Source: Parasynechococcus marenigrum WH 8102 (GTDB lineage: Bacteria > Cyanobacteriota > Cyanobacteriia > PCC-6307 > Cyanobiaceae). Taken from it: 46,001 bases of DNA. The DNA lies in assembly GCF_000195975.1 (NCBI RefSeq), contig NC_005070.1, forward strand, positions 911,000-957,000, in the 5' to 3' direction. Shown here one piece after another: positions 26,101-43,374 of this stretch (positions within the stretch are counted from its first letter, which is position 1; each line of letters begins with the position of its first letter). The notes beneath the pieces were generated by a model that had not been told where the DNA came from, did no database searches, and saw only the letters and a list, made by a program, of their open reading frames with translations. The position numbers were made by a program, and so were the translations under genes.

Positions 26101-29100
26101 ACCAATCCCTTTGGTGATGTGTTATCAATATCTAATCTTTCCGCTTCGAATGGTACATTAATTGGCCCCGTGAATGGGGTTTATACGTTCACACCGAGTG
26201 CTAACTTTAACAGTGATCTTGGTGGTGTTGTTACTTTTAATTATTTGATTAATGATGGCCAAGGTGGCTCCATCGCTAATACTATTACAAGGACTATTGA
26301 TCCCGGCAACGACTCCCCTGTTGCTACTTTTAATACTGCACAGTTTGCCTCTGAGAATGGAGGTACTCTTACAGGCCAGTTAACTGCTACCGATATTGAA
26401 CTTTCTCGAGGTGACAATGCTGGTAAAACCCTCACTTACACTCAGACGAATACTGTTGCTGGCTTTGCTCTCGCTGTTGATGGCTCCGGTTCATTTACAT
26501 TTGATACTGCTGATACTACCTATCGTTACTTAGCACTTAACGAAACACTTACGCTTACTATTAACTATCAGGTTACAGACGAGGTTCTTGGTACTAATTT
26601 TGGTAGTTTAACAGCTCAGGACCTCGCAAACACTAAAGGTTCTTTCACGATCACTCTGACTGGTTCGAATGACGATCCTTATGCAGTAGGCGGTGCCTTG
26701 GCTGCTCTTACGCCGGGAACGGAAGATACGACGTCTACCTTCACCATTGCAGACTTGACTCAAGGCTATGCTGATTATGATACCTCTGATGTTTTAACTG
26801 TTCAATCACCTACTGCCTATAAGGTTGTTGACGGTGTGACCACTGACGAGATTGTTGGCTCCTTTACTCCTAACCTTGTCAATAATATTCTGCAAAGCTA
26901 TACCTACCAGCCATCTGCCAATTTTACCGGTAATTTAGAAGTCAAATATGTTGTCTCTGATAGTAAGGGGCCCGGTATCGCAGGTTCGTCAACTCTTGTC
27001 ATCAACGCGGTGAATGACACGCCTGTACCGACGTTTGCCTTCAACCAGTCCGCATCGGAGGCTGGTGCTGTCGTGACTGGTCAATTAACTGCGGACGATA
27101 CTGAAATTACTACAGGCGAACAAGCAGCTACTTCCCTTACTTATTCATTAGTTGGAGATGCTATTGCAGGTCTCACCATTGCCGCCGATGGACAATTCAC
27201 CTTTGATCCTACGAATGCTGCGTATGAGTATTTGGCGAACGGTGAAGAGCAGGTAATTACGGTTAATTACCGAGTCACGGACCCTGGCAATTTGTTTGCT
27301 GATAAGTCATTTACTATTACTATTAATGGTACAAATGACAATGTTGTTGTTGATTTGAACGCAATCGCGACTCTTGCTGCAGCAACAGAAGATACTGCTT
27401 TCGTTGTCAGTATTGATCAGCTTTTACAGGGCTTCAGTGATGTAGATACCTCAGATGTTTTGGTCGTTCAGGGTCTGACCGCATTTAAGGCTAATGCTGC
27501 TGGCACTGCTCTCGATGAAGTTGCAGGTACTCTCACTCGTGTTGAGACCAATGGTGTGCTTACTGGATATCAATTCACGCCAGTCGCCAACTACAACGGT
27601 AATGTTGCACTGAAGTACACTGTTGTTGACGGCAATGGTTCTGATATCGCTGGCTCACTTGTTCTCAACGTGAATGCAGTTAATGATATTCCTGTCCCGT
27701 CCTTTGGTATCAATCAGGTTACATACGAGGCCGATACATTGGTTACCGGCCAATTAACTGCTGATGATATTGAGATTGGTACTGGTGAGCAACTTGCAAC
27801 ATCTCTGATTTATACGTTATCCGGAAATGCAATTCCTGGCTTTGCTATTGCCAACGATGGGGCTTTCACCTTTGATCCCACGAATCCTGCGTATGAGTAC
27901 TTGGCTGCTGGTGAAGAGCAGGTGATTACGGTCAATTACCGTGTAACTGATGCCGGCGGATTGTTTGCTGAAAAGAACTTTACCTTCACCGTTAAGGGTA
28001 CGAACGACGATCCTGTCGTTGACTTGGGTGCCATCGCGGCCCTTGCAGCTGCAACTGAGGATACGCCTTACACTGTGAGTGTTGATCAGCTTTTACAAGG
28101 CTTTAGTGATGTTGATACTTCAGATGTTTTGGTCGTACAAGGCCTCACGGCGTTTAAGGCCGATGCTGCTGGAAATGCACTTGATGACGGTGCTGGCACT
28201 ATTTCTCGCGTAGAGGTCAATGGTGTTCTTACTGGGTATCAATTTACTCCTCTTGATAATTACAATGGTAATGTAATACTTAAATATACCGTCGCTGATG
28301 GTAATGGCCCTGGAAGAGCTGGATCCTTGCCCCTTATTGTTAATGCTGTCAATGATCTGCCTGTTCCCACCTATGATACAAATTTGGTTAATACAGAAGG
28401 TAACGAATTAGTCACTGGCCAGTTAACCGCAGTTGACAACGAGATTATTACTGGCGAGCAACTTCCAACTTCACTGACTTATACACTGTCTGGCAATGCA
28501 ATACCGGGACTGACTATTGCTGCAGATGGGGCGTTTACCTTTAATCCTCAGGATGCTGCTTATGACTATTTGGCATTTGGTGAGGAGCAGATAATTAATG
28601 TTAACTATAGAGTAACTGATGCTGGAGCTTTGTTTGCTGAGAAGACCTTTACCATTACTGTTAAGGGTACAAATGATGATCCCGTTGTTGATGTTAACCA
28701 AACTGTAGCACTAGCTGCTGCCACCGAAGATACCGAGTACTTAATTACAACCGCTGATCTTCTCGCGGGTTATAGCGATGTTGATACAACAGATGTTTTG
28801 ACTGTTGAATCACTCGTTGTATACAAAGCTGATAATGCTGGACTTCCTACTACCGAGTTAGGAGGTTCCGTGACGCCTGTTGTTGTGAATGGTGTTACAA
28901 CTGGTTATAATCTTCTGCCTGCTGATGATTATTTTGGTGATGTTGTTGTCACCTATATTGTCTCGGATGGCAATGGGCCTGGAGTACCTGCTACCTCGAC
29001 TATTACTGTCAACCCTGTAGTTGACGTTCCTCGTGTAGGTAATCTAGGTGAAAAGGGATTGAATTTAGGTCAAACACCTGAGGATACTCCTACTACCTTC

Positions 29101-32100
29101 ACCACTGCTGATTTGTTAGCAGGCTTTACTGATCCCGATGGCTTCGAATTGACGATTAAGCCTGATTCTGTGACAAACGCCTATTCCACGATTACTTTGG
29201 AAGGTGATACCTATACCTTTACACCTAATCTAAATTTCTCCGGTTCGACTCAAATTGATTTTACAGTTGTCGATGCTGCTGGTAATGAGGTTCCATTTTC
29301 AAAATTTATCGATGTTATTGAAGTTAATGATCCGCCTTCGATCACTCTTGATCGCGATGCATTGGATTCCGATTATAAGTCTAAGACATATTTGATTCCG
29401 TTTGAGCAGATTTTCGCTGTTGTTCCAGCTAATCCAGTGGTTGAGCTTATTGATCCTGATTTATCTATTACAACTCAAGTCGTTGGTGATTCACTGAGTA
29501 TTGAAATTCCTGCTGCCTATACTGAGGACGTCTCATTTATGTTTGGTGATACCGTTGTTGATCCAAACTCTTTATTTACGTTAGACGTACTTAGACCTTT
29601 ACAGGTTTCTGACCGTAATGTTGTAGCTGGTTTTGAACGCTTCTTTGCCTTATCTGATTTTGGATTCGGTGATGTTGAAGGTTTGCCTTTACAGTCTGTT
29701 CTGATTCAGGTGCCTGATACATCTCTTGGTACTATTCGTGTTGGTTCGGGTAACTTTGACACCGACACTGAGAATGTGATTCAGCTCACCCCACTCGCTT
29801 CTAGTGATTTCAACCAATCAAATGTTTTTGAGGTTACACGGGAACAAATTGAGACCGGTAGTGTTTATTTTGTTGCCAATCCTTCTCCACTAAATGCTGG
29901 CAAGTCTGCTGATCTTGAATTCATAGTAAAAGATGAGAGTGGTGATCTGTCAACACTCCCAGGTCTGCTTAGAATTACTATACAAGAGGCACCAGAATCT
30001 GTCCAAGATTTTATTGCTAATTCAACTTACGAACCTATTTTCGATGCCGAGCTTGGACTTAATCGTTTTGACTCTGTTGACACCATAATCTCTTCTATAG
30101 GTATAACTCGTGACGAAGCCTTGTCTGTTATACGTTCTACTTTGCCTATTCGCACTGCGGCCAATAGCTTTGATGCCAGTGTAGAGACTCCTTTCAGTTA
30201 TGTAACCCAAAATGAGGTTGAATATCGGTGGGATATTGGAGCATTTGACATCTTTGAATATGATTTCACCAGTAACACGCAAACCCTGGTTCTCGACTTC
30301 GCTTCTTTAACAATTGATTCCGACCTATACCAACATTTTGCCGACCTCTATACCTATTCATTAGCTAATGATCTTGATAATGCTTATTTGGCTAGTAAAC
30401 TTGTTGAGTTAATTCCTGGTTCTAATGACCGGCTCAATAAGATTGAAGATGCATTTTCTCTTTCTAATTACGATGATATATATAGCTATTTGACCGCTTC
30501 TGGCAGGAACGGACCTGAGCTACTTGATATTACTACTGATAATACCCAGAAGCAGTTTGTTCGTTTGTACTCTGCTATTGCTTCTTCACCTATTCTTTCT
30601 AATACCTTTAATGAAGGTCGTGATCTACTTGTCCAGAGTGTTCTGGATCTTATTAATCCCCCTTCTCCATTACCCAACCGACTTGTTGATAATCTGAACG
30701 ATCTTTTTACTGAGAAGACTAGTTCTTTAGCCTCTTCTTTTGTTCTGCCCTCTGGTATTGCATTGTCTCCTGAAGGTTTAGATAGATTAAACCGAGTTAC
30801 AAATTTGGTAGGTACGGGTGGTTCTTCTGACTTGTTAGCAGCCTCTGAATTTTCTACTAATACCCCTCAGCTATTAAATACTCTTAGTGACCAAAATATT
30901 ATCTCTGATACAGGGTCTCTTTTGAATAATTTTGGGCAGCCTGTATTGAGTGACGGTGAACCGCTTATTATCTCTGACTACCAATCATTGGTTAGTTCTT
31001 TTGTTGATACAAATCTCACTACATTTTCCGACGACTTCCTTGAGAATGATTCTATCTCGGGCGAATTAGCGCGTAACATTGTCCTCAATGAGATTTCTGA
31101 ACGAGTTGTTCAGGCTGCTGATTCATCTACGGTACCGGAAGTTATTAGTTCTACTCTAAATAATCTACTTGCTGCTGCCTTGCAGTTAGATCCTGTTGCT
31201 GAGGACGCTAAAACTGAGTCGAATCGTCTTCTTAAGATGGCTCTGAGTGTTGATTCTTTGGTTGAGCAGCGTCCCCTTTATGAAGTAGACGAGGCCACAG
31301 GTCAGCCCAAAACTGTTTTTGACCCGAGATCGAATACTGATGTGTTTGTTGTTAATGAGGAAAATCAGGCCTTTTATAATGCTGCACTTGAGCAGCAAGA
31401 TGTTTTACAGGCAGATTATGTTGGTCTTACCTTAGAGCAGTGGAAGGATATTGATAACCAACCTAATTCTGCTAAAGTTAAAGCTGACCGTATTAACGCT
31501 GTTAAGATAGGAATCTCTTATGCTGATTATCTTAATTTTGCGAACTTAAATCCTCTTGACTCTGAGGTTTGGTCTATTTATCCTTTTGTTGGTTACGTTG
31601 AGGCAGGTACATTTGATTCTGATGACTTCTTAGTTGTTGATAATCTCTTTGTTGACCCACAGGCAGCTCTCAATAATCTTATCTCAAGTGGGATTAACAA
31701 AGGTGTCAGCTTTGATGACTTCTCAAGTCTTCTCTTTAATCAGCCAATTTACACACCAAGTACAGTATCGTCTGATTCTGGTGCTGAGATTACACGTGCA
31801 GATGCTATTACATATGCCTCTACTGATCCATCCAGTGCTCTTTATATTGCCGCAATGGACTCTAATTTCCAGGAGGGTAATGTTATTAAGGCATATAAGA
31901 CTACCAACCCCAACCCTTACAAATTTACTATTGAGGATTTTGATGACGCTAATTTACTTACCGATGGCCTTCAAGTTAGTTATCTTGTAAACTATACATA
32001 TGGTGATTTAGCTGTCGGTGATTCTGGTTATACCTTTAATGTTGCTTCTGGTTATTCACCAGATCTTGTTGGTCATGACTTAGATGAGTTTAATTTGGCC

Positions 32101-35054: not shown

Positions 35055-35537
35055 TCAACAGTGGTCTTTCAGTTCTCTCCTGATCTTTGGCACGGCGTCC
35101 GGCTGTCCTTGCATCAAGAAAGCTTCTCTTTCTATATCAAATTTCTCGCTTTCATAATTTCGATATAGGATTGACTCTATTGCTATTTTTACCGCTTCAT
35201 CAACATTTGGCATCCATCCAATTGGCTGTAATGATCCTGTCCTACAGGTTTGCGCTGCATGAACAGCTTCATGTAAAAATGTTGTCCTAAAGATTCTCAT
35301 TTGTTGTGTTATAGGTGCAATCCATATAACTTTCTTTTTTGTATTTATCAATCCGTAGGTACCTTGCATCGGCGGTTTCTCAAATTTGATTTTAAATCCA
35401 GCCTCTATCAATGACAATCTAAGTTCATTCAAGTCTTTTACTAGATCTATTTCTTCTGCCCTAGATGGATTTACTGTAGTTAGAGCCAAAAGCGATGCAA
35501 TTATGGCTGTCGAAATGTGTCTGTTAATATTTATCAT
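35055..35537 (-). CDS. Small secreted HExxH-motif protein (putative Zn-metallopeptidase-like), last gene of the operon
   Basis: 160-aa ORF. The N-terminus is signal-peptide-like (MININRHISTAIIASLLALTTVNPSRAEE). HEAVH at aa 89-93 was verified on the DNA (35259-35273, reverse complement CATGAAGCTGTTCAT). Its start overlaps the upstream stop by 4 nt (ATGA). Confidence 0.65.
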   Translation of the reverse strand: MININRHISTAIIASLLALTTVNPSRAEEIDLVKDLNELRLSLIEAGFKIKFEKPPMQGTYGLINTKKKVIWIAPITQQMRIFRTTFLHEAVHAAQTCRTGSLQPIGWMPNVDEAVKIAIESILYRNYESEKFDIEREAFLMQGQPDAVPKIRRELKDHC

Positions 35538-36208
35538 TGAATTGTCATGCTACGGCCTGAATTACCCCAGAAATTGATAGGGTCATCTTTGTACCAGGGT
35601 TCCCAACCAATAGGAACTTTATTTTTTCTGGCAGATCGTTTTATCTCTCTGTACATCTTATACCCTGATGCTTCTAGTACTATGAAAACGGCTTGATTAT
35701 TTGTGTTTAGGTTTTTCATTAGTGTGTCTAGCCAATCTCTCAATTCTTCACTCTCAGAGTCAATCGTAGGTTCTTGTGACCTTAGGATTTGTCCTTTCTC
35801 ATGATTGATTGTCATTGATATACCATTAATTTGCTCTTCCTTTTCCCATCCGTTTAATTTGCTATTGCAGATTTCTAGCTCTGGAGATAACAAGTTTTCA
35901 CAACTTCTTACCTCTTTGGCCCTCTCGCGGTCTAGTTCAGCCATTCTATTTATTGCAGGCTGTAAATCCCACACTCCTTCTTTTGCTGCTTGTAAAGTCC
36001 AGAATTGTTTCTTTGTTTCTTTTTTCATTGGCGCTTGTATATTGACTGCACTTGTTGCAGCGAAGACACCAGCAAGTGAGCTAACTAGCACAAGTACCCC
36101 AACAACATTGCATAAGAGATCTAATAGGCTGTCTGAGCTGTCAGCTAACCCAGATGAACTTTTTTTGCCCTTTTTACGGAGAAGGATTTGTTTCTGTTCG
36201 GTATTCAT
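35534..36208 (-). CDS. ExbD/TolR-like single-pass membrane protein, long paralog (224 aa), retains the TM aspartate
   Basis: A basic N-terminus (KKGKKSSS) precedes SLLDLLCNVVGVLVLVSSLAGVF, which resembles the ExbD/TolR TPFIDVMLVLL motif with Asp30 (codon 36119-36121 = gat). The C-terminal VFIVLEASGYKMYREIKRSARKNKVPIGWEP parallels the ExbD periplasmic domain and the neighbouring paralog. There are 4-nt overlaps with both neighbouring genes. Confidence 0.5.
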   Translation of the reverse strand: MNTEQKQILLRKKGKKSSSGLADSSDSLLDLLCNVVGVLVLVSSLAGVFAATSAVNIQAPMKKETKKQFWTLQAAKEGVWDLQPAINRMAELDRERAKEVRSCENLLSPELEICNSKLNGWEKEEQINGISMTINHEKGQILRSQEPTIDSESEELRDWLDTLMKNLNTNNQAVFIVLEASGYKMYREIKRSARKNKVPIGWEPWYKDDPINFWGNSGRSMTIQ

Positions 36209-36654
36209 TTGGGACTCTCCGGAAACTTAACTTTAAGTTCACTTTCGATTGGTTCGTAGCCATATTCTAACTTATTGAACTCTGCTTTCGATCTTAGTTT
36301 TTCAAAACAAAGATATCCTTCAGGTCGTACACCTATGATTATGTATTGGGGTGTTTCATCAGTTCCTAGGCTTTTTATGATGACATCTACTTTCTCATCG
36401 TTTATATTCATATCCATACTTTCGTTTCGGATTAACATGTTCATATTTCCCTCCTTATTGCATACAATATAATTTCCATTTTTACCTTTACCTTCTCCTC
36501 CGGCAGGCAGGAGTTTCACCACATTGACTCCTGGTTTAATTTGCAAAGCGAATATTACGAGTGTCAATGTCTGGACACCAATTGTTGCAGTCATTATGTT
36601 TAGGAACGATGACAGATCCATACCTGCGTCGCCCTTTTTTCTGCGTCTTCCCAT
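36205..36654 (-). CDS. ExbD/TolR-like single-pass membrane protein, short paralog (149 aa), with Asn at the TM acidic position
   Basis: MGRRRKKGDAGMDLSSFLNIMTATIGVQTLTLVIFAL has a basic N-terminus and one TM segment. FLNIM aligns by eye to the ExbD FIDVM motif. YIIIGVRPEGYLCFEKLRSKAEFNKLEYGYEP matches the paralog pattern. The start overlaps the MotA-like stop (TAATG). Confidence 0.55.
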   Translation of the reverse strand: MGRRRKKGDAGMDLSSFLNIMTATIGVQTLTLVIFALQIKPGVNVVKLLPAGGEGKGKNGNYIVCNKEGNMNMLIRNESMDMNINDEKVDVIIKSLGTDETPQYIIIGVRPEGYLCFEKLRSKAEFNKLEYGYEPIESELKVKFPESPK

Positions 36655-37967
36655 TATCTTGACCTAATTTTGTCCATAAGTATACCTATGCCAAATCCAT
36701 TCCTTTCTCTTCTCATGTTCTTATTCAGCAGGTCAATGGATTCTTTCAATTCAATCAACGATCGTAATTGAGCTTTTTGATCTATACCGATCCTATTTTC
36801 AGCTAACAAGTCGCTTAGTTCACCGGCAAGCAAATTCATTGCATTTCTTATGATGTCAGTCTGTTCCTGTAAGCTTAGGCGTGCTTCACTCACTCCTTCT
36901 ACAGAATCTCTGACAATTGTTGTAAGTGGTGTTAGTTTTTCTATCGTTGCTTCCGTTAATTTTTCTGCATAAACCTGGGCTGGTTCTACCAGTACTGATG
37001 GATCTGGTAGATGTTTTTCGAACGCATCGCTTATCAACCCTGCAATGTCGTCCCCAAAAATCTCTTTTGGTGTGGGTTTCTCTGGAGTTTTCTCTGATGT
37101 TCCACCGCCAGCACCACCTCCAGTCCCTTCTCCAGACTGTGACGCTATTTCACCGCTACCCAGAGGACTCAGTGATAAGACTCCATCTCTCACAACTCCG
37201 TCAATTTGGCTCAGTAATCTATCTTCAATCTTTTCACAAAGTGTGAGTGGGAATGCCAAAAATACTGATATTACCAGTGCTAGGAATGTTGTGTCGAACG
37301 CTGTACCAAGTCCCCCAGTAACTTGAACCAAGCCATCTTTTAGACCATCAACGTTGTCTGCGTTACTAAGAACGGCATCAAATGAACCAACAGCTTGGGA
37401 CATTCCAATAACAGTTCCTATAAATCCAGTCAGTGGAATTGCCCATAATAATAGCTTTGGAAAACTAAAACTACTACTCATGGATAATTCGTAAAGATCA
37501 ACATCTCCATCGGCAGCTCGTTCCAGCTGAAACGCTGATCCTGTTGATTCCCATACATCCAATAGGTGTAGAAGTCGTTTACCGACGAGAGATCCAGAAT
37601 TCTCAGATTTAAGTTTTATAGCCTCTAAATCACCTTGCCTTACTAAACTTGGTATTTCTAGATCAAATGCTAAATAATCTTTCTGTGCTTTTTGCAAAAT
37701 GCGTAATTTGTTAAATAAGAACCACCCCAGCATTCCGCCCAATATGAGTGTTGCAACTTGGGTTGGTCCACGCTGATGAAAAAGGGCATGCCCTGGCATT
37801 GCGTCTGGAAAGTTCACCGCCCAGATCAAAAAGCCAGCAATCCCCCCGGTGATGATCCACCGACCGAATTTTGGATCAAGGTCATTGCCAAGGCCCAAGC
37901 TTACCGAAGGTACAGGTACGCTTCTGCTTCTTGCATCTGCTTCGAGTTGTCCTGTGGAGGTTGTCAC
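36654..37967 (-). CDS. MotA/TolQ/ExbB-family ion-channel protein (437 aa, 4 predicted TM segments) with a C-terminal extension of about 170 aa
   Basis: The family core is recognisable. LLLWAIPLTGFIGTVIGMSQAVGSF aligns with TolQ APFIGLFGTVWGIMHAF. VTGGLGTAFDTTFLALVISVFLAFPL aligns with TolQ [23 protein letters not shown]. Two N-terminal TM segments (WIITGGIAGFLIWAV and VATLILGGMLGWFLF) are separated from TM3 by a loop of about 90 aa, a MotA-like topology. The tail has a Gly-rich linker and then helical, Glu/Leu-rich sequence. Confidence 0.75.
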   Translation of the reverse strand: MTTSTGQLEADARSRSVPVPSVSLGLGNDLDPKFGRWIITGGIAGFLIWAVNFPDAMPGHALFHQRGPTQVATLILGGMLGWFLFNKLRILQKAQKDYLAFDLEIPSLVRQGDLEAIKLKSENSGSLVGKRLLHLLDVWESTGSAFQLERAADGDVDLYELSMSSSFSFPKLLLWAIPLTGFIGTVIGMSQAVGSFDAVLSNADNVDGLKDGLVQVTGGLGTAFDTTFLALVISVFLAFPLTLCEKIEDRLLSQIDGVVRDGVLSLSPLGSGEIASQSGEGTGGGAGGGTSEKTPEKPTPKEIFGDDIAGLISDAFEKHLPDPSVLVEPAQVYAEKLTEATIEKLTPLTTIVRDSVEGVSEARLSLQEQTDIIRNAMNLLAGELSDLLAENRIGIDQKAQLRSLIELKESIDLLNKNMRRERNGFGIGILMDKIRSR

Positions 37968-38001: not shown

Positions 38002-38325
38002 TTACTTTTTTTCTGTATTCCATTCTTGCCATTCTACTTCTAACTCTCCAGCATCATTAGCTCCTGGTGCTGGAATCTTTGTTAGCAGTTCGTCTGGTAG
38101 TCCGAGACGTTGAAAGACCGTTTGTCTTTGTACCGCCGGCATTGCGGAAAACGACCTCACCACATCTCTTACTTTGTACTCTGAGTAGACCATTTTCATT
38201 AATTCATCTTGATCCTCATCTGGAAGATTTTTAAACCAATTGACAAACTTTTCGGTTTTAGTTTTAAGGTCCATTTTCGGAGGGTTCAGCGGGGGCATCC
38301 CTCCAATTATAGCCCCTAATGTCAA
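38002..38325 (-). CDS. Hypothetical small protein (107 aa) between the HlyD and MotA-like genes
   Basis: The ORF fits the operon spacing (18 nt after the HlyD stop, 34 nt before the next start) and shares the island composition. I recognise no motif. Confidence 0.5.
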   Translation of the reverse strand: MTLGAIIGGMPPLNPPKMDLKTKTEKFVNWFKNLPDEDQDELMKMVYSEYKVRDVVRSFSAMPAVQRQTVFQRLGLPDELLTKIPAPGANDAGELEVEWQEWNTEKK

Positions 38326-38343: not shown

Positions 38344-39504
38344 TTACTTACTTGATTTTATTCTAGTAAGCGAATCTAAGGCCTTTTGTACCGCATCTGT
38401 TAGTAATGATATGACCCGCTTATCTCTAAGAATGAGATTCACTTGTACACTTTGGCCCGCACTGATTTCGTATTTTTCTCCATCTTTTTCAAGATAGTCC
38501 TTGTCAATCTTCACGTATGCCGGGAACCTAGGCATTGGATTTTGTTGATCTGGTTCTAGTGGAAGTGTCCCCACTGACTTCAAGGACCCTGTAATTGATC
38601 CAAATTGTGTATACGGAAAAGCATCGACCCTTATTTGGGCTTTCATTCCAGGCTTCATAAAACCAACATCTTGATTAGTAATGTATATTTTTGCCTCGAT
38701 TTCCCCTCCTGGGACAACTTTTACGAGTGTCTCTCCCGCCGAAGCCGCATACCCTGCGCTTGATGGAATCATCCCATAGACAATTCCTGCAATCGGTGCG
38801 CTCAATTTTTCTTTTGTTATCGTATCCTGAACTTCAACCATTTGCCGTTCTAGTTCTGATATTTCACGCAGGGATTCTTGTTTTAGTTTGTTGAGCTGTG
38901 CTTCTACTTCCTCCAAGTCCGCTTTTACAACTTGTGCCTCTGACTCCAGTTGTTCTACTTTATTCCTTTGCCTTAGCAGCTCTGTTAGTTGCATTGCGCC
39001 AATCTCTGCTAAGGGTATGATATTTGTATATATACTTGATTCTGTATTTAACGATCTATTTATACCATTTAATCGCTCGACTACTCCTCTCTTTCTAGCC
39101 TCGACAGCTCTCGACTCTTCTTCAAATCTTTTTCTTTCGAGCTTTATTTGTGTTTCTAATGTTTCTTTTCTCTTTCGAGATACGTCTGCGTCAAATCTCA
39201 ATAAGGTGTCTCCTGCATTAACTTTTTGCCCCTCCTTAGCTACAATATCCTTAATTACTCCCCCGAATGGTGCTTTGACTGGTCTTTCAGCACCCAGCGG
39301 TTGTAATTCTCCAGGAGCCAGTACTACTTCGTCAATTTTTGCAAATACAGCAAATATAAATCCGAGTGATGCTGTCGAAATAATGGTCCATGCCAGAGCC
39401 TTGCTCCAAAGAGGTGCCGGCCTTAGTTGTACTTCTTGATGATTGAGTGGCCTTACAGCCAGACTTGAGTTGGTTTTTGGGCTATTTGAATTTGAGGTAG
39501 TCAT
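38344..39504 (-). CDS. HlyD-family periplasmic adaptor (membrane fusion protein) of a type I secretion system
   Basis: 386 aa with an N-terminal TM segment (ALAWTIISTASLGFIFAVFA). Lipoyl-like hairpin motifs are present (VKAPFGGVIKDIVAKEGQKVNAGDTLLRFD and LSAPIAGIVYGMIPSSAGYAASAGETLVKVVP). A long central coiled coil is present (ERKRFEEESRAVEARK...QLESEAQVVKADLEEVEAQLNKLKQESL). The gene starts 2 nt after the ABC gene stop. Confidence 0.9.
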   Translation of the reverse strand: MTTSNSNSPKTNSSLAVRPLNHQEVQLRPAPLWSKALAWTIISTASLGFIFAVFAKIDEVVLAPGELQPLGAERPVKAPFGGVIKDIVAKEGQKVNAGDTLLRFDADVSRKRKETLETQIKLERKRFEEESRAVEARKRGVVERLNGINRSLNTESSIYTNIIPLAEIGAMQLTELLRQRNKVEQLESEAQVVKADLEEVEAQLNKLKQESLREISELERQMVEVQDTITKEKLSAPIAGIVYGMIPSSAGYAASAGETLVKVVPGGEIEAKIYITNQDVGFMKPGMKAQIRVDAFPYTQFGSITGSLKSVGTLPLEPDQQNPMPRFPAYVKIDKDYLEKDGEKYEISAGQSVQVNLILRDKRVISLLTDAVQKALDSLTRIKSSK

Positions 39505-39506: not shown

Positions 39507-42500
39507 TTAGGATTCTTGTTGGTGGTAAAGTGTTGCATAGCGGCCATCCAATGCCATAAGTTCTTCATGAGTACCTTTTTCAACTAATGCCCCTTGATCC
39601 ATTACAAGAATAACATCAGCAAATTTGAGAGATGCCAATCTATGAGTTATAAAGAAAACGGTGCTATCCTTATACAATTCTATCAGATTTGCCGTTAATC
39701 TTCTTTCAGTGTCTACATCAAGAGCACTTGTTGCTTCATCTAGTACTAGTAATCTTGGTCTCCTGATTATCATTCTTGCTATTGCCATTCTTTGTCTTTG
39801 TCCTCCACTCATTCCAGCTCCTCTTTCCCCTACGGAGCTGTTGTAGCCGGCGGGCATAGCTTGAATAAATTCGTGTGCACAGGCAATTTGTGCTGCTACT
39901 ACAACTTCCTCAAATGATGCATCAGGCCTTGCTAACGCAATATTTGACATTACTGACCCGTCGAACAACAGACTATCTTGTGGTACTACACCGATTTGCG
40001 ATCTTAAGGAGTAGAGATCTACTTTGCTAATGTCATTATCGTCTATGAGAATTTGGCCATCGTTTATTTCGTATAACCTTGTTAGCATTTTCAACATTGT
40101 GCTTTTGCCAGAGCCACTACTTCCCACGACCCCAATGAATGAACCTTGTTCAATTTTGAAATTAATGTTTGATAGATTAAGTGCTCCTTCCTTCCCAAAT
40201 CTAAAGTTAACACCTTTATATTCCACTGTTCCTACTATGGGAGGTATTGGTGGCTTTTGTTCTCCAGTAATTTCTAATTCTTGGGGATGATCTACGATAT
40301 CAGCCAGTCTCTCTAACGATAATGCAGTTTCTTGAAAATTTTGCCATAAGTTTGCCATCCTAAGCAAAGGACTTGTCACGTAACTTGCTAGGATTCTGAA
40401 GGCAATTAATTGTCCAAGTGTTAGTTCACCTTTTAATACTAGTGAGGCTCCAATCCACAAAACAATAAGTCCTGAAAGCTGTTCAAGAAACTGACTTGCT
40501 GATCCGGCCGCTGTGCTTGTTACGGTGTTCCTAAAACCCGATGTTATCTGACCTCCGTAGAGCTGTTGCCATCGCCACCGACTATGAATTTCCATACTCT
40601 GGCCCTTAATGGTTTCCATTCCTCCAACGGTCTCAACTAAGTGACTTTGTACCCGAGCGTTAGCTTCAGCCTGTTCTCTAAGTTGCTTTCGTATGATTGG
40701 TGCTGATACTAATGTCAACCCCACAAATAATGGAACTACTACTAATGACCATACTGTTAATTGGACTGAGTAAAGTAACATAACAGCAATGTAGATGATT
40801 GCAAAAATTGCATCTAACACTACCGTTAGCGCTGTTCCGGTCAAAAACTGTCTTATTTTTTGTAGTTCATTGATTCTGCTGCTTACTTCACCGACTGGTC
40901 GATCTGAAAAGTAACCTAATGGAAGCCTAAGTAGGTGATCGATGATTGATGAACCTAATGAGATATCGATTCGATTTGTAGTATCTGCAAATAGGTATGT
41001 CCTTAGCGAAGATAATACCGCTTGAGCTAGACTCATGCCTATTAACAATGTTCCAAGCACATTAAGGCTGCTAACATTTCCTTGGCTGATCACAGCATCT
41101 ATTATTTGTTGTATCAAAAGTGGATTTAATAATCCAAATAGTTGTACAAAAAAACTGGCGACTAGAACCTGAATAAGGACTGCTTTATGTTCTTTTAAAG
41201 CTGGTATAAACCATCCCAACCCAAATCGTTTCTTAGGTGATACTTTGCTTCTTTGAATCGTTAAAACCTGTATTGTTCCATCATCGTTTCTAGCACCTAA
41301 GTCTTTTGTTGAAACTTTTATTTGTCCTTCTTCGGGGCAACTGATCAGTGCTTGGCCAACCATGTCCGCTGACCATAATATTATTGGTTTATTCTTACGT
41401 ATTGCTATTGCAGGTAATTGTAAACGCCCTATCTGGTTTTCCGTTACATTTATTTGTGTTGCTCTAAGGCCAATTAAGTCAGCAGTAGCAGCAAGTTGAA
41501 TCAAACCAATTGATCTTTCTCCCGTTTCTGATAATTCATTTCTCATCAATTGATCTTCAATTATTCTCTGTATTACATCTTTTCTAAAAGGTATATCAAA
41601 GTATCTCGCAAGCATTCTTAATGCAGCCATTGGAATCCCTACAGGTCCAGACCCATCCAACTGTGGAAAGCTCCCGTCATCGCCAAGCTTTCCATACCAA
41701 TCTTCAAGAGCCTCCTGCTGTTTTTCTACTGCAACTATTGCTGTGCTGCTTTCTTGCCAGTCAGGTTCTACGACTTCAGCCTCAATTTGGAGAGGTGCAG
41801 CCTCGCTAGAGTCTGGGCTTACGACTAATACTTGTGGGACATTGATTGGAGGTGTAGCTCCACTTTTAGAGATTAATCTTGCAGGAACTTTCCCTTGAAC
41901 TATTAACTTCATTGGTCCAAGTAATTCTTCACCTGGCTTGCATCCAGAAATGTTTGAACTGCTTACCAACCACGGCCCCCATTTAGAATCAACAAAGTGT
42001 TCACCTGGAGGTAGTAATAATATTTTGTGATCTCCTTTTGATTCTGCTATTTTGTTGCTTGCCCAGTCTTTTATCTCGTTTTTCGTGTTATTTAGAGGCG
42101 AATTTGTTAATATACTAACTCCATACAATTCTTCAATGTTAGGTTCAAGAAATTCATTTGCAAATTCTGCGTTTTCCGCTATTACTTGCAGAAATCCAGT
42201 TTGAGGAAGCAGCCATAGCAAGCTTGGCTGCGATGCGGCTAATGCATAACCAGTTACCCCCCTGAGGATTCCAATATGTCCAGCTTGATCTCCTGGAGCT
42301 AATCTATATAGTGTGAAAGGTTCTTCTCTTTCATCTAATGCAAGCAATCTCATCTGACCCTCTGCTATGAGGGCTATCCCTGGAGGAAGGTCTGAAAAAT
42401 CATATAATTTTTGACCCGGACGTAATCGTAATGGTTGAATTGTTTCTGCTAGTTTTGCCTTTTGCTCTGTTGATAGTTTTGAGAAAGGCGCCCAGGAGTT

Positions 42501-42530
42501 GATTAGGCGCAATGCCTGTCTTAATTGCAT
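39507..42530 (-). CDS. Type I secretion ABC transporter (HlyB-like) with an N-terminal cyclic-nucleotide-binding domain and a catalytically inactive C39-like domain
   Basis: 1007 aa. The N-terminus is cNMP-binding-like (LRLRPGQKLYDFSDLPPGIALIAEGQMRLLAL...LAPGDQAGHIGIL). The C39-like region (GIPMAALRMLARYFDIPF...LPAIAIRKNKPIILW) lacks the Cys and His of active C39 peptidases. A six-helix TMD follows. The NBD has Walker A GSSGSGKST, signature MSGGQRQR and Walker B LLVLDEATSALD. Confidence 0.93.
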   Translation of the reverse strand: MQLRQALRLINSWAPFSKLSTEQKAKLAETIQPLRLRPGQKLYDFSDLPPGIALIAEGQMRLLALDEREEPFTLYRLAPGDQAGHIGILRGVTGYALAASQPSLLWLLPQTGFLQVIAENAEFANEFLEPNIEELYGVSILTNSPLNNTKNEIKDWASNKIAESKGDHKILLLPPGEHFVDSKWGPWLVSSSNISGCKPGEELLGPMKLIVQGKVPARLISKSGATPPINVPQVLVVSPDSSEAAPLQIEAEVVEPDWQESSTAIVAVEKQQEALEDWYGKLGDDGSFPQLDGSGPVGIPMAALRMLARYFDIPFRKDVIQRIIEDQLMRNELSETGERSIGLIQLAATADLIGLRATQINVTENQIGRLQLPAIAIRKNKPIILWSADMVGQALISCPEEGQIKVSTKDLGARNDDGTIQVLTIQRSKVSPKKRFGLGWFIPALKEHKAVLIQVLVASFFVQLFGLLNPLLIQQIIDAVISQGNVSSLNVLGTLLIGMSLAQAVLSSLRTYLFADTTNRIDISLGSSIIDHLLRLPLGYFSDRPVGEVSSRINELQKIRQFLTGTALTVVLDAIFAIIYIAVMLLYSVQLTVWSLVVVPLFVGLTLVSAPIIRKQLREQAEANARVQSHLVETVGGMETIKGQSMEIHSRWRWQQLYGGQITSGFRNTVTSTAAGSASQFLEQLSGLIVLWIGASLVLKGELTLGQLIAFRILASYVTSPLLRMANLWQNFQETALSLERLADIVDHPQELEITGEQKPPIPPIVGTVEYKGVNFRFGKEGALNLSNINFKIEQGSFIGVVGSSGSGKSTMLKMLTRLYEINDGQILIDDNDISKVDLYSLRSQIGVVPQDSLLFDGSVMSNIALARPDASFEEVVVAAQIACAHEFIQAMPAGYNSSVGERGAGMSGGQRQRMAIARMIIRRPRLLVLDEATSALDVDTERRLTANLIELYKDSTVFFITHRLASLKFADVILVMDQGALVEKGTHEELMALDGRYATLYHQQES

Positions 42531-42648: not shown

Positions 42649-43374
42649 TCACATCGTCTTCTGGGACACTATATCTCTTGACTTCTTCAGTTCTTCTGCT
42701 AGGAGTTCCTCGCCCAGTTCCGACAATATTTTCAACCTCTCTTCTTTGTTGAAGACTGCCGGCCAGAGTTTTTCACTTATAACGATTCCCCATCCGTTTT
42801 CAATTTTTATTGGCGGCCATACTTGTTTGGGTTGACTAATCCTTAGCAATTCAGCAAGTGCATCAGGTAACTCTTGTAGTTTAACTGGTCCAACCCTACC
42901 GATTTTTAATCCCTGAGGAGGATTTGTCGAGAGTAGAATAGCATCATCAACGGAGCATTCTCCCTCTTTGATGCGAACAAATACTTCGCCAGCAAACGCT
43001 TCGTCATCTATCCATATCATTGAGTAGCTAACTTTGTCTAACTTTGCCTTTTCTTTTAGGAATTTTGTTGCAGCTTGGTTTTTGAACTTCTTTTCGCAAA
43101 CTTTAATCCATCTATAATATCTTGTTGCCCTTGTTAGTAACGATTCCTTGTCTACGTTCTCGCTCCTCATCCATTTCGCAAGTTCTTCTTGGGTATAGAT
43201 GTTCATGCTACTTAAATATACTTGTATTACCTCTTCCTCCGATGCGTCTAGTGTTATTTCCGTCTCGATCAATTCATCAAGTACTAGTTCTCGTTTTATG
43301 GAGCCTTCGATGCCCCATCTTTTCAGATCTTCAGGATTTATAGCTTTTGTGCTCACTTGGTGCTTTGCCGACAC
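42649..43374 (-). CDS. PpiC/parvulin-like (rotamase-fold) protein, probably catalytically degenerate; first gene of the operon
   Basis: 241 aa. The C-terminal half aligns by eye to E. coli PpiC. YSMIWIDDEAFAGEVFVRIKEGE..LSTNPPQGLKIGRVGPV..LPDALAELL...PIKIENGWGIVISEKL compares with [47 protein letters not shown]...PLHTQFGYHIIKVL. Both conserved His positions are replaced (M/W and G). Confidence 0.5.
   Translation of the reverse strand: MSAKHQVSTKAINPEDLKRWGIEGSIKRELVLDELIETEITLDASEEEVIQVYLSSMNIYTQEELAKWMRSENVDKESLLTRATRYYRWIKVCEKKFKNQAATKFLKEKAKLDKVSYSMIWIDDEAFAGEVFVRIKEGECSVDDAILLSTNPPQGLKIGRVGPVKLQELPDALAELLRISQPKQVWPPIKIENGWGIVISEKLWPAVFNKEERLKILSELGEELLAEELKKSRDIVSQKTM

What the first reader, a model, noticed from the sequence alone, without database searches (positions are those of the whole stretch)
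35534..37967. MotA/TolQ/ExbB-type channel plus two ExbD/TolR-like subunits next to swmB: candidate ion-driven motor or energiser of non-flagellar swimming
Seen in the sequence: the 437-aa protein carries the diagnostic MotA_ExbB core (GFIGTVIGM ... GLGTAFDTTFLALVISVFLAFP). It has a 4-TM, MotA-like topology and a large cytoplasmic loop and tail. It is followed by two single-pass proteins with ExbD-like N-termini and a shared C-terminal motif.

Established knowledge: complexes of this family (MotAB/PomAB, ExbBD, TolQR, Myxococcus AglRQS with one TolQ-like plus two TolR-like subunits) convert ion-motive force into mechanical work across the envelope. Synechococcus swimming was reported to depend on sodium-motive force, and no motor has been identified.

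Inference: this module may power SwmB-dependent surface movement. Alternatively it may energise an outer-membrane step of SwmB export or anchoring. The one-channel, two-TolR-like composition mirrors the gliding motor. The 170-aa cytoplasmic tail has no counterpart I know of in ExbB/TolQ.
Basis: partly seen in the sequence, partly recalled or inferred. Interest (0 to 1): 0.88.

Follow-up and report, generated by a model that had tools for sequence, protein, structure and literature searches.

The report
Ion-motor-like accessory of SwmB secretion system
Next to the giant swimming protein gene swmB, a type I secretion operon also encodes a MotA/ExbB-type ion channel and two distant TolR-like partners; this conserved three-gene module is a real, testable candidate for powering SwmB export, anchoring or movement, but it also occurs in relatives not known to swim.

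Summary
The three ORFs exist as described. The 437-aa protein is a genuine MotA/TolQ/ExbB homologue: Pfam scores above its cut-off, and hhalign gives 97% against ExbB/TolQ/MotA with the channel Thr/Pro/Gly residues conserved.

The 149-aa and 224-aa proteins are single-pass paralogues of each other (hhalign 99.3%). They do not match Pfam ExbD. Their link to ExbD/TolR rests on three things: topology, a borderline profile match (59%), and TolR being the best structural hit for p149.

p224 keeps an invariant transmembrane Asp in every lineage sampled. p149 has Asn at that position.

The triad is translationally coupled to a cNMP-ABC/HlyD type I secretion operon. That eight-gene cassette keeps its gene order across marine, brackish and freshwater picocyanobacteria, convergent with a SwmB-family substrate wherever the contig reaches that far (about 1,100 to 10,791 aa where complete).

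The closest precedent is Salmonella SiiAB with SiiCDF and SiiE.

Distant triads also occur without a T1SS, so the triad is an autonomous module.

The best reading is an ion-driven accessory of SwmB secretion or display. "Swimming motor" is not excluded, but the distribution does not favour it.

The parts
36654..37967 (-). p437: MotA/TolQ/ExbB-type channel ('A') subunit. It has a conserved ~170-aa cytoplasmic tail with the motif DAFEKHLPDPSVLVEPAQ.YAEKL followed by a coiled-coil-like end.
   Evidence: PF01618 scores 29.3 bits against a cut-off of 22.9. hhalign to ExbB/TolQ/MotA gives 97%, E 1e-10, and aligns P178/G181/T185/V186/G188 and T227 with the ExbB channel positions. Those residues are invariant down to 23% identity. 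The tail is nearly invariant within the family. The tail profile hits only coiled-coil and SNARE chains in the PDB.
36205..36654 (-). p149: single-pass TolR/ExbD-like subunit (B') with Asn19 at the position of the ExbD/TolR Asp.
   Evidence: One TM helix at 16-39 after a basic N-terminus. The AF2 periplasmic domain has pLDDT 72-80. The best PDB match is TolR 5by4 (probability 1.00, target-normalised TM-score 0.60), with ExbD and TolR domains at 0.61-0.72. N19 is invariant in 22 homologues. In the wider family the position is S/N/D/A. The start overlaps the p437 stop by 1 nt.
35534..36208 (-). p224: single-pass paralogue of p149 (B) with an invariant TM Asp30 in a D-x-x-x-N motif and a larger periplasmic domain that ends in GWEPWY..DP..FWGN.GR.
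   Evidence: One TM helix at 24-57. D30, N34 and G37 are invariant, including in distant triads. The AF2 periplasmic domain has pLDDT 80-96. It is homologous to the p149 superfamily at 99.3%, E 1e-20. It overlaps p149 by 4 nt.
35055..35537 (-). p160: last gene of the cassette, with a signal-peptide-like N-terminus and an invariant HEAVH...EREAF. Candidate periplasmic Zn-metallopeptidase.
   Evidence: The motifs are invariant in every homologue that covers them: the window protein plus L002, L004, L006, L007, L019, L021 and L022. There is a weak DUF6782 hit at E 0.027. It overlaps p224 by 4 nt. It is syntenic in L002, L004, L006, L007, L019, L021 and L022.
38002..38325 (-). p107: small, strongly conserved soluble protein between HlyD and p437. 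The likely true start is Met18 (about 90 aa).
   Evidence: No TM helix and no family hit. It is conserved in every T1SS-linked cassette at 52-82% identity.
38344..39504 (-). HlyD-family periplasmic adaptor of a type I secretion system.
   Evidence: TIGR01843 type_I_hlyD at E 2.9e-46 and HlyD_3 at E 1.8e-18.
39507..42530 (-). HlyB-type T1SS ABC permease/ATPase with an extra N-terminal cNMP-binding domain and a weak C39-like domain.
   Evidence: TIGR01846 scores 700 bits. ABC_membrane, ABC_tran, cNMP_binding (E 8e-6) and Peptidase_C39 (E 0.004) all hit.
42649..43374 (-). p241: conserved first gene of the cassette, with no recognisable family.
   Evidence: Syntenic at 35-71% identity in L002, L006, L007, L017, L021 and L022. 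No Pfam hit.
2140..34515 (+). SwmB (10,791 aa): giant repetitive surface protein and presumed cognate T1SS substrate, convergent with the cassette.
   Evidence: ORF. SWM_repeat, Cadherin_4, Cadherin_5 and Big_9 domains, plus a weak N-terminal DUF4347. The convergent genes next to homologous cassettes share its C-terminal ~250-450 aa and, in L007, its N-terminal domain. The size matches the published WH8102 SwmB (PMC4949707).

Best explanation
p437, p149 and p224 form an inner-membrane, ion-driven complex of the MotA/ExbB-TolR kind (the '5:2 motor' class). This complex is a dedicated accessory of the type I secretion system encoded in the same operon (cNMP-ABC plus HlyD). The substrate of that system is the convergent SwmB-family giant surface protein.

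**Proposed working.**
1. A ring of p437 surrounds the TM helices of the single-pass subunits.
2. H+ or Na+ passes via Asp30 of p224 and the conserved Thr185/Thr227 of p437.
3. The resulting rotation or conformational work is passed on in two directions. On the periplasmic side it goes through the TolR-like domains of p149 and p224. On the cytoplasmic side it goes through the conserved tail of p437.
4. That work reaches the ABC/HlyD conduit and assists translocation, retention or tensioning of the giant substrate at the cell surface. This is what Salmonella SiiAB is thought to do for SiiCDF and SiiE.

**Shown here:**
- homology of p437 to the MotA/ExbB/TolQ family;
- paralogy of p149 and p224;
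- conservation of the ion-path residues;
- the operon structure;
- synteny of the cassette with a SwmB-like substrate.

**Inferred:**
- the 5:2-type assembly;
- ion flow;
- the physical coupling to the T1SS;
- what the output does.
For: - **p437 is a family member.** Pfam scores above its cut-off. hhalign gives 97%. The channel-lining positions are invariant from WH8102-type proteins down to 23%-identical relatives.
- **p224 carries the conserved Asp.** An invariant TM Asp sits in a D-x-x-x-N motif in every lineage sampled.
- **p149 looks like TolR.** Its model best matches TolR and ExbD periplasmic domains. A superfamily profile matches ExbD/TolR over the TM helix plus the domain at 59%, E 9e-5. 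A close relative (E 6e-30) is named ExbD by IMG.
- **The genes are translationally coupled.** Overlaps of 1-4 nt link p437, p149, p224 and p160. Gaps of 2-34 nt link ABC, HlyD, p107 and p437.
- **The cassette is conserved.** The eight genes keep their order in L001-L007, L017-L019, L021 and L022. A convergent gene with a SwmB-like C-terminus follows wherever the contig extends that far: L002, L006, L007, L019, L021 and L022.
- **The tail tracks the T1SS.** The p437 tail motif is conserved in T1SS-linked members down to 41% identity, but degenerates in a triad with no T1SS.
- **There is a precedent.** SiiAB is a MotAB-like proton channel encoded with a T1SS for a 595-kDa adhesin, and its TM Asp is required for function (bioRxiv 10.1101/641415).
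Against: - Neither small protein matches Pfam ExbD.
- The close-family profiles do not match ExbD/TolR significantly.
- No Foldseek E-value is below 1e-3, and p224's own structural match to TolR is weak.
- The p437 profile finds no solved MotA, ExbB, TolQ or ZorA chain by sequence.
- Distant triads exist without any T1SS: beside a ~1,500-aa multihaem protein and an FGE-sulfatase in L015 and L023, and beside an nSTAND/CHAT protein in L020. T1SS coupling is therefore lineage-specific and not intrinsic to the triad.
- No outer-membrane channel gene is in the window.
- A microarray study reports SYNW0951-0961 induced by mitomycin C, with swmB as the exception. The cassette and swmB are therefore not strictly co-regulated (PMC3744912).
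- No assembly, ion flux or interaction was tested.
Confidence: 0.6

Rival explanations
1. The triad is the long-sought motor of non-flagellar swimming. Its ion-driven rotation is transmitted through the T1SS conduit to surface-exposed SwmB. SwmB then moves relative to the cell and the SwmA S-layer and generates thrust. This would parallel GldLM, which both powers type IX secretion and drives the giant adhesin SprB along the surface of Flavobacterium.
For: - The module sits in the same low-GC island as swmB, convergent with it.
- It is of the only protein class known to turn ion flow into envelope-spanning mechanical work (PMC9389320).
- GldLM sets a precedent for a motor that both secretes and propels a giant adhesin (PMC8986121 abstract; PMC9389320).
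- Reviews up to 2020-2025 list no motor and give the energy source as 'Unknown'.
- Sodium dependence of swimming (Willey et al. 1987, from my memory) would fit an ion-driven stator.
- No held paper connects ExbB or MotA genes to SwmA/SwmB swimming.
Against: - The complete cassette, with a SwmB-like substrate of only ~1,100-1,500 aa, occurs in Vulcanococcus, Cyanobium and freshwater Synechococcus MAGs. Swimming has been described only for marine clade III (PMC7522525).
- Strain RS9916 is reported to have a 1,159-aa SwmB-like protein (PMC4949707).
- The SiiAB precedent has nothing to do with motility.
- p149 has lost the TM Asp in exactly the marine lineage that swims.
- Nothing here links the module to SwmA, the S-layer or a track.
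Confidence: 0.2
2. The triad does not produce mechanical work. It is an ion- or membrane-potential-sensing gate or regulator of the T1SS, for example coupling secretion to energisation state or to cyclic-nucleotide signalling through the cNMP domain of the ABC protein.
For: - The ABC transporter carries an N-terminal cNMP-binding domain.
- p149 has replaced the Asp with Asn.
- The wider family often has Ser or Ala at that position, which would be compatible with a degenerate, non-rotating assembly.
- How SiiAB's proton flux helps its T1SS is also unknown.
Against: - p224's Asp is invariant in all sampled lineages, and the Thr, Pro and Gly channel positions of p437 are invariant across five sequences down to 23% identity. 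This argues for a conserved ion pathway of the working-motor type.
- No family member of this class is known to be a pure sensor (my knowledge).
Confidence: 0.1
3. It is a Ton- or Tol-like energiser (ExbB-ExbD-ExbD or TolQ-TolR) that serves outer-membrane uptake or envelope integrity. It would be unrelated to SwmB and lie next to it only because of island structure.
For: - IMG and PGAP annotate p437 homologues as 'biopolymer transport protein ExbB/TolQ' or 'MotA/TolQ/ExbB proton channel family protein'.
- ExbB followed by two ExbD genes is a common Ton layout, for example in the Bacteroidota locus L010.
Against: - There is no TonB, TolA or TonB-dependent receptor in the window. None of the cassette proteins matches such a family.
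- The triad is translationally coupled to T1SS genes, and the gene order is conserved across lineages together with a SwmB-like substrate.
- The small proteins fail PF02472, whereas the bona fide ExbD genes I used as reference align with each other normally.
Confidence: 0.05
4. It is a Zorya-like anti-phage module (ZorA-like channel with a tail) carried on a genomic island.
For: - Weak hits of the p437 core to ZorA models: NCBIfam ZorA_2 at E 0.014 and PADLOC ZorA1 at E 0.0011.
- A long cytoplasmic tail.
- The location in a low-GC island.
- One distant triad (L020) lies beside an nSTAND/CHAT protein.
Against: - The scores are far below family cut-offs (14.5 bits against 100).
- There is no ZorB-type OmpA domain and no ZorC, ZorD or ZorE. 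The other five cassette proteins scanned (p149, p224, p107, p160, p241) gave no hit to a defence-system component; p160's only hit, HORMA at E 0.046, is not meaningful.
- The conserved partners are T1SS genes.
Confidence: 0.02

Closest known systems
Salmonella SPI-4 SiiAB with T1SS SiiCDF and the giant adhesin SiiE
   Same: - A MotA-like plus MotB-like inner-membrane ion channel is encoded in the same locus as a T1SS ABC protein and adaptor.
- The sole substrate is a giant repetitive surface protein.
- A TM Asp in the single-pass subunit is functionally critical in SiiA (D13), and the corresponding Asp is invariant here (p224 D30).
- How ion flow helps the T1SS is unknown in both (10.1101/641415).
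   Different: - Here there are two single-pass subunits, not one.
- Their periplasmic domains are TolR/ExbD-like, not OmpA-like peptidoglycan-binding domains. No OmpA-type hit appeared in Pfam, and the profile searches of PDB sequences found no SiiA, MotB or other OmpA-like chain.
- No outer-membrane component is in the operon.
- There are extra conserved genes (p241, p107, HExxH p160).
- The ABC protein has a cNMP-binding domain.
- Sequence homology to SiiA and SiiB themselves could not be tested, because I had no sequences.
Myxococcus AglRQS gliding motor (one TolQ-like plus two TolR-like subunits)
   Same: - The composition is one channel subunit and two paralogous single-pass subunits.
- It is not known whether the two form heterodimers or homodimers (PMC9389320).
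- It is linked to non-flagellar motility.
   Different: - AglQ and AglS are both described as having the mid-membrane Asp (PMC9389320). Here p149 has Asn in the picocyanobacterial lineage.
- AglRQS works with the Glt trans-envelope complex, not with a T1SS. No Glt-like genes are present here.
ExbB-ExbD(-TonB) and TolQ-TolR(-TolA)
   Same: - p437 aligns to ExbB, TolQ and MotA over the cytoplasmic loop and the two C-terminal TM helices, with the conserved Pro, Gly and Thr positions.
- p149's periplasmic domain best matches TolR and ExbD structures.
- Topology and gene order (channel gene first, then the single-pass genes) are the same.
   Different: - There is no TonB or TolA partner.
- The small proteins fail PF02472.
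- p437 has an extra N-terminal hydrophobic segment and a conserved ~170-aa tail that the ~230-245-aa ExbB and TolQ used as reference lack.
- p224 has an insertion of about 60-75 residues in its periplasmic domain.
Bacteroidota GldLM / type IX secretion / SprB
   Same: This is a functional analogy only. An ion-driven 5:2 motor is attached to a protein-secretion machine, and that machine exports and then moves a giant surface adhesin needed for non-flagellar motility (PMC8986121 abstract; PMC9389320).
   Different: - There is no sequence relationship.
- The secretion system is different (T9SS versus T1SS).
- Movement of SwmB on the cell surface has not been shown.
Zorya ZorAB
   Same: A MotA-like subunit with a long cytoplasmic tail. 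There are weak HMM hits to the channel core.
   Different: - The scores are far below the cut-offs.
- There is no ZorB-type partner and no ZorC, ZorD or ZorE.
- The conserved neighbours are secretion genes.

Membership tests
MotA/TolQ/ExbB proton channel family (PF01618) - p437 | Match to the family HMM above the curated threshold | tested here: met
   29.3 bits against a gathering score of 22.9, E 7.8e-7. PF01618 is precomputed for all but one of the 120 listed homologues; the exception is a truncated sequence.
MotA/TolQ/ExbB proton channel family (PF01618) - p437 | Profile-level homology to bona fide ExbB, TolQ and MotA across the loop and the last two TM helices | tested here: met
   hhalign of A1 against A5 (E. 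coli ExbB, TolQ and MotA plus a Bacteroidota ExbB): 97% probability, E 1.1e-10, 155 columns.
MotA/TolQ/ExbB proton channel family (PF01618) - p437 | Conserved channel-lining residues in the two C-terminal TM helices: the Pro/Gly/Thr motif and the second Thr, equivalent to ExbB T148/T181 (residue numbering from my knowledge) | tested here: met
   P178, G181, T185, V186, G188 and T227 align to the conserved ExbB positions. They are invariant in five sequences down to 23% identity.
MotA/TolQ/ExbB proton channel family (PF01618) - p437 | Pentameric ring around a dimer of single-pass subunits (5:2), and ion conduction | not testable with these tools
ExbD/TolR family (PF02472) - p149 and p224 | Match to the family HMM | tested here: not met
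   No hit for either protein. None of 22 p149 and 21 p224 homologues hit at E <= 10. One of 79 distant superfamily members hit at E 0.002.
ExbD/TolR family (PF02472) - p149 and p224 | Profile-profile homology to bona fide ExbD/TolR | tested here: inconclusive
   Close-family profiles give 9.9%, 0.2% and 6.6%, covering the TM region only. The 79-member superfamily profile gives 59%, E 9.2e-5, over 117 columns that include the periplasmic domain. The reference profile had only 4 sequences.
ExbD/TolR family (PF02472) - p149 and p224 | Single N-terminal TM helix, N-in, encoded directly after the channel gene | tested here: met
   One hydrophobic segment in each protein after a Lys/Arg-rich N-terminus. 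The gene order is conserved in all loci.
ExbD/TolR family (PF02472) - p149 and p224 | Conserved Asp in the TM helix (ExbD D25, TolR D23, MotB D32/33) | tested here: met
   This row is p224 only. D30 is invariant, including in distant triads, and aligns with ExbD D25.
ExbD/TolR family (PF02472) - p149 and p224 | Conserved Asp in the TM helix - p149 | tested here: not met
   N19 is invariant in 22 homologues and aligns with ExbD D25. Other lineages have D or S at this position.
ExbD/TolR family (PF02472) - p149 and p224 | Periplasmic alpha/beta domain with the TolR/ExbD fold | tested here: inconclusive
MotB/PomB/SiiA-type stator subunit | C-terminal OmpA-like peptidoglycan-binding domain | tested here: not met
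   No OmpA-family hit in Pfam or NCBIfam. No MotB, SiiA or other OmpA-like chain appeared in the profile searches of PDB sequences at E <= 10.
SiiAB-type T1SS with a stator-like accessory (system level) | Channel and single-pass subunit genes in one locus with a T1SS ABC protein, an adaptor and a giant repetitive substrate | tested here: met
   with conserved synteny.
SiiAB-type T1SS with a stator-like accessory (system level) | Sequence homology to SiiA and SiiB themselves, and an outer-membrane component in the operon | not tested
No outer-membrane protein gene is present in the window.
Ton system (ExbB-ExbD-TonB) | TonB-like transducer and a TonB-dependent receptor associated with the module | tested here: not met
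   None of the cassette proteins matches TonB or receptor families. This was tested within the window only.
Zorya (ZorABCD/E) | ZorA above threshold, plus ZorB and ZorC/ZorD or ZorE | tested here: not met
   ZorA_2 scores 14.5 bits against a cut-off of 100. PADLOC ZorA1 gives E 0.0011 on the channel core only. The other five cassette proteins scanned gave no hit to any Zorya component.

The most novel reading that the evidence does not exclude
The p437/p149/p224 triad is the missing ion-driven motor of Synechococcus non-flagellar swimming. A 5:2-type stator docks on a type I secretion conduit, and its rotation or pulling is transmitted to the 1.1-MDa SwmB on the cell surface and from there to the SwmA S-layer. 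This would be the T1SS counterpart of GldLM/T9SS/SprB. The same triad family, which consists of a channel subunit, an Asp-bearing subunit and a frequently degenerate paralogue, would be a previously undescribed and widespread class of three-component envelope motors. It would be coupled to different cargo systems in other bacteria.
Probability: 0.2. Interest if true: 0.95.

Novelty: new variant of a known kind. Interest (0 to 1): 0.7.

Why it matters
**The open question.** How marine Synechococcus swims without flagella has been unresolved since 1985. Reviews still list only SwmA and SwmB, give the energy source as 'Unknown', and refer to hypothetical motors.

**What this module offers.**
- It is the only gene set in the swmB island that belongs to the protein class known to convert ion flow into mechanical work across the envelope.
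- It offers single-residue handles: p224 D30, p149 N19, p437 T185/T227.
- These can separate three possibilities: a secretion defect, an anchoring defect, or a true motor defect.

**Why it matters apart from swimming.**
- It would be the second example, after Salmonella SiiAB, of a stator-like complex attached to a type I secretion system for a giant surface protein.
- It is phylogenetically distant from SiiAB.
- It comes with a natural series of substrates from about 1 to 10.8 kaa.
- It could therefore help explain what ion-motive force contributes to the secretion or display of giant adhesins.

**The wider family.** The triad belongs to a family of 272 representative clusters that also occurs without a T1SS. 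That points to an unrecognised family of envelope motors.

Tried and rejected
- **PDB sequence searches with family profiles.** The p437, p149 and p224 profiles returned no MotA, ExbB, TolQ, ZorA, ExbD, TolR, MotB or SiiA chain. p437's tail hit only coiled-coil proteins. This shows how remote the families are and is not evidence against homology.
- **Pfam at permissive thresholds on every member of both small-protein families.** No ExbD hit.
- **Structure prediction of p437.** Not done, because both jobs went to the small proteins. The 4-TM topology and the fold of the tail are unverified.
- **Primary papers.** McCarren & Brahamsha 2005, 2007 and 2009 and the Scanlan 2009 review are not held. 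I could not check whether the transposon screen hit these genes. I recall only that it reported 'multicomponent transport systems' in three clusters.
- **Asymmetric heterodimer idea.** I considered that one Asp (p224) paired with one Asn (p149) is a defining feature of the triad. I rejected this as a general rule, because p149-like proteins have Asp in L015, L017 and L023 and Ser in L020, L025 and L026. It remains a feature of the picocyanobacterial lineage.
- **D225 of p437 as a conserved extra charge in TM4.** Rejected, because it is His in L017.
- **Promoter and terminator scans.** Nothing above shuffled expectation.
- **Zorya/defence reading.** Rejected.
- **L016.** The 576-aa protein upstream of a p149-like gene is not p437-like, so not every family member follows a MotA-like gene.

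Full report
**1. What is there**

The window is a low-GC island (GC 0.37-0.45) set between higher-GC flanks (0.56-0.63). It holds one 10,791-aa ORF on the plus strand (2140..34515). That size matches the published SwmB of Synechococcus WH8102 (PMC4949707).

Convergent with it, on the minus strand, are eight genes:

| Gene | Coordinates | Identification |
|---|---|---|
| p241 | 42649..43374 | no family |
| ABC protein, 1007 aa | 39507..42530 | HlyB-type T1SS transporter |
| HlyD-type adaptor, 386 aa | 38344..39504 | T1SS periplasmic adaptor |
| p107 | 38002..38325 | no family |
| p437 | 36654..37967 | MotA/TolQ/ExbB type |
| p149 | 36205..36654 | TolR/ExbD-like, single pass |
| p224 | 35534..36208 | paralogue of p149, single pass |
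| p160 | 35055..35537 | candidate metallopeptidase |

The last four genes overlap by 1-4 nt. The others are separated by 2-34 nt, apart from 118 nt between p241 and the ABC gene, so the sequence reads as one operon. Consensus promoter and terminator scans added nothing above shuffled expectation.

The ABC protein is a HlyB-type T1SS transporter (TIGR01846, 700 bits). It has an additional N-terminal cNMP-binding domain and a weak C39-like domain. The adaptor matches type_I_hlyD at E 3e-46.

**2. The 437-aa protein**

Pfam MotA_ExbB matches above its gathering score (29.3 vs 22.9 bits). A 14-sequence family profile aligns to a profile of E. coli ExbB, TolQ and MotA plus a Bacteroidota ExbB at 97% probability, E 1e-10, over 155 columns. 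This covers the cytoplasmic loop and the last two TM helices.

In that alignment P178, G181, T185, V186 and G188 fall on the invariant Pro, Gly and Val columns and the conserved Thr of the reference set. T227 falls on its second conserved Thr. By established knowledge of ExbB (T148/T181) and TolQ (T145/T178), these threonines line the ion path. All of these residues are invariant across five sequences down to 23% identity.

The family profile finds no solved MotA, ExbB, TolQ or ZorA chain by sequence. Hits to ZorA models are far below threshold. The protein is therefore a remote branch of the superfamily.

Hydropathy shows two strong C-terminal TM helices and two weaker N-terminal hydrophobic stretches. 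A 4-TM MotA-like topology is plausible but was not verified.

The tail is not a low-complexity appendage. Residues ~307-375 are almost invariant in the family, and the end resembles coiled coils.

**3. The two small proteins**

Both have a basic N-terminus and a single TM helix. They are paralogues: hhalign gives 89% on the close families and 99.3%, E 1e-20, over the full length with broader profiles. p224 carries an insertion of about 60-75 residues.

*Evidence against ExbD/TolR membership:*
- Neither protein, nor any of 43 close homologues, matches Pfam ExbD, even at E <= 10.
- The close-family profiles do not match a small ExbD/TolR profile.

*Evidence for a distant relationship:*
- An exhaustive HMMER search with the p149 profile found 272 representative clusters at E <= 1e-3.
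- A 79-member alignment of these has the N-terminal consensus basic-(S/D)LFPF(L)x(I/V)L..TLG.L.LI, which resembles the ExbD/TolR motif.
- That alignment matches ExbD/TolR at 59%, E 9e-5, over 117 columns spanning the TM helix and the periplasmic domain.
- One of its members hits PF02472 at E 0.002.
- IMG names one close relative (E 6e-30) 'ExbD'.
- The AF2 model of p149 (domain pLDDT 72-80) has E. coli TolR as its best PDB match (probability 1.00, target-normalised TM-score 0.60). H. influenzae TolR scores 0.72 and ExbD domains 0.61-0.66. No E-value is below 1e-3.
- p224's periplasmic domain is modelled with high confidence (pLDDT 80-96). Its direct match to TolR is weak.

I therefore call them distant TolR/ExbD-like proteins and not members of PF02472.

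**4. The critical polar residue**

All alignments place p224 D30 and p149 N19 at the position of ExbD D25.

- p224-like proteins keep Asp, in a D-x-x-x-N motif, in every lineage examined. This includes distant triads at ~17-24% identity.
- p149-like proteins vary:

| Residue | Where |
|---|---|
| Asn | all picocyanobacterial cassettes of the window's type |
| Asp | L015, L017, L023 |
| Ser | L020, L025, L026 |

Across the 79-member family the counts are S 23, N 19, D 19 and A 9.

p224 is therefore the conserved ion-binding subunit. p149 is a frequently degenerate paralogue. Whether the two form a heterodimer inside one ring, or separate complexes, cannot be decided here. The same question is open for AglQ and AglS (PMC9389320).

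**5. Context: the decisive evidence**

tblastn of the window's proteins against loci recovered with the p437 profile shows the same eight genes in the same order in:
- marine Synechococcus (L001, L002, L022);
- Vulcanococcus (L004, L021);
- Cyanobium (L005, L006);
- freshwater Synechococcus UW140 (L007);
- other MAGs (L003, L017-L019).

Wherever the contig continues, the next gene is convergent and shares SwmB's C-terminal ~250-450 residues. In L007 it also shares SwmB's N-terminal domain. The sizes differ widely:

| Locus | Substrate |
|---|---|
| L007 | two proteins, 1,502 and 1,109 aa |
| L021 (Vulcanococcus) | at least 1,496 aa, with Cadherin_4/Cadherin_5/Big_9 repeats |
| L002 | at least 1,787 aa |
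| window | 10,791 aa |

SwmB itself is built of SWM_repeat, Cadherin_4/5 and Big_9 domains. That is the make-up of T1SS adhesins.

The cassette occupies the same chromosomal neighbourhood (malQ and an HTH_25 gene) in the window, L021 and L022.

The cassette is therefore a dedicated T1SS with accessories for SwmB-family proteins. It is not confined to the swimming clade III. Doré et al. describe swmA and the giant swmB as specific to clade III (PMC7522525).

**6. The triad as an autonomous module**

Distant p149-like genes are again preceded by a long MotA_ExbB gene (471-618 aa) and followed by a 208-235-aa p224-like gene. For L015, hhalign gives 99.4% to the p437 family and 95.5% to the p224 family.

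These triads have no T1SS:
- L015 and L023 sit beside a ~1,500-aa multihaem (CXXCH) protein and an FGE-sulfatase.
- L020 sits beside an nSTAND/CHAT protein.

The p437 tail motif DAFExHLPDPSVLVxPAxxYAEKL is kept in T1SS-linked members down to 41% identity. It is partly kept in L020, whose upstream region is missing. It is degenerate in L015, which has no T1SS. I infer, and have not shown, that the tail is the adaptor to the T1SS side. Candidate partners are the ABC N-terminal domains or p107, which is found only in T1SS-linked cassettes.

**7. How it most likely works**

By homology to the 5:2 motors (PMC9389320), the model is as follows:
1. A p437 ring encloses the TM helices of p224 and/or p149.
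2. Ions pass via D30 and T185/T227.
3. The relative movement is delivered on two sides: to the periplasm through the TolR-like domains, and to the cytoplasm through the tail.
4. The operon and its synteny tie the output to the ABC/HlyD conduit and its giant substrate.

The nearest documented system is Salmonella SiiAB. It is a MotAB-like proton channel whose TM Asp is needed for SiiE-dependent adhesion, and which is encoded with T1SS SiiCDF and the 595-kDa SiiE. Its mechanistic contribution is still unknown (10.1101/641415).

I put 0.6 on 'ion-driven accessory of SwmB-family secretion or display'.

GldLM shows that a secretion-coupled 5:2 motor can also propel a giant adhesin. The motor of Synechococcus is still unidentified. 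However, the cassette's presence with small substrates outside clade III argues that motility, if involved, is a derived use.

The regulator, Ton/Tol-like and Zorya-like readings are less likely, for the reasons given under the rivals.

**8. Novelty and limits**

Databases already label p437 homologues as 'ExbB/TolQ' or 'MotA/TolQ/ExbB family'. The family assignment alone is therefore not new.

The held literature does not cover:
- the coupling of such a module to the swmB T1SS;
- the two small subunits;
- the wider triad family.

Specifically:
- The SwmA/SwmB papers returned by that search contain no occurrence of 'ExbB'.
- The 2022 5:2-motor review and a 2025 MotAB-evolution survey mention neither cyanobacteria nor T1SS.

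Limits:
- I could not read the original transposon-mutagenesis papers.
- No multimer model or p437 structure was made.
- The fold evidence for the small proteins is moderate.
- All functional steps are inferred.

Noticed in passing
window 35055-35537 (-): p160, the last gene of the cassette, has a signal-peptide-like N-terminus, an invariant HEAVH (HExxH) with a downstream EREAF, and conserved Cys residues in every homologue that covers the region. It looks like a small periplasmic Zn-metallopeptidase that could process or release the SwmB-type substrate, by analogy with LapG. The only family hint is a weak DUF6782 match (E 0.027).
   Followed up: partly
window 39507-42530 (-): The T1SS ABC transporter carries an N-terminal cyclic-nucleotide-binding domain (E 8e-6) ahead of a weak C39-like domain. 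The same architecture is precomputed for the orthologues in L017, L018 and L021. This suggests that secretion is gated by cNMP.
   Followed up: no
window 38002-38325 (-): p107 is a small soluble protein with no family. It is 52-82% identical across all T1SS-linked cassettes and absent from triads with no T1SS. Homologues start at its Met18, so the real protein is probably about 90 aa. It is a candidate adaptor between the T1SS and the p437 tail.
   Followed up: partly
window 1-2100 and 43400-46001; L021 and L022: The swmB/cassette island (GC 0.37-0.45) lies between an HTH_25 gene (5-922) and malQ, a Glyco_hydro_77 gene (44322-45860). In Vulcanococcus (L021) and a marine MAG (L022), malQ and the HTH_25 gene are adjacent and the cassette follows them. 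This looks like a conserved insertion hot-spot, with the giant gene expanded in the window.
   Followed up: partly
window 43400-44300: A non-coding-looking stretch upstream of p241 has the lowest GC in the window (0.358) and an extreme AT skew (-0.495). It contains only a Lys-rich 68-aa ORF (43534-43740). It may be the promoter or regulatory region of the cassette, or an island boundary.
   Followed up: no
L015 8342-16035; L023 1497-10292: Distant triads (MotA_ExbB of 548-618 aa, then 152-165 aa, then 212 aa) lie next to a ~1,500-aa protein packed with paired CXXCH and MtrC-like multihaem domains, and next to an FGE-sulfatase. This suggests the same motor family serves a quite different cargo system.
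   Followed up: partly
L009 9512-10954; L011 9605-11044 (Bradyrhizobium MAGs): A 260-aa MotA/ExbB-like protein sharing the GFIGTVIGM motif is followed by a 217-aa single-pass protein with a 'VLDLF' TM Asp. Both lie next to PP2C phosphatase and FHA-domain genes. L023 also has PP2C, FHA and Ser/Thr-kinase genes nearby. This may be a recurrent link between these channels and Ser/Thr phospho-signalling.
   Followed up: no
L022 5604-9607 and 13225-21326: In this marine MAG the ABC gene, the HlyD gene and the SwmB-like gene are each split into several ORFs. This is either long-read assembly frameshifts or a decaying cassette.
   Followed up: no
window 2140-34515 (+): SwmB contains long runs of near-identical ~300-aa and ~140-aa repeat blocks at the protein level (SWM_repeat and an unassigned repeat). 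Published work notes assembly gaps in swmB in other strains (PMC7522525), so copy number may vary.
   Followed up: no
literature: PMC3744912: A microarray study reports that most of SYNW0951-0961 is strongly induced by mitomycin C, with swmB (SYNW0953) as the exception. Another paper predicts a LexA site for SYNW0959, the ABC transporter (PMC3091678). The secretion cassette may therefore be SOS- or stress-regulated independently of its substrate.
   Followed up: no
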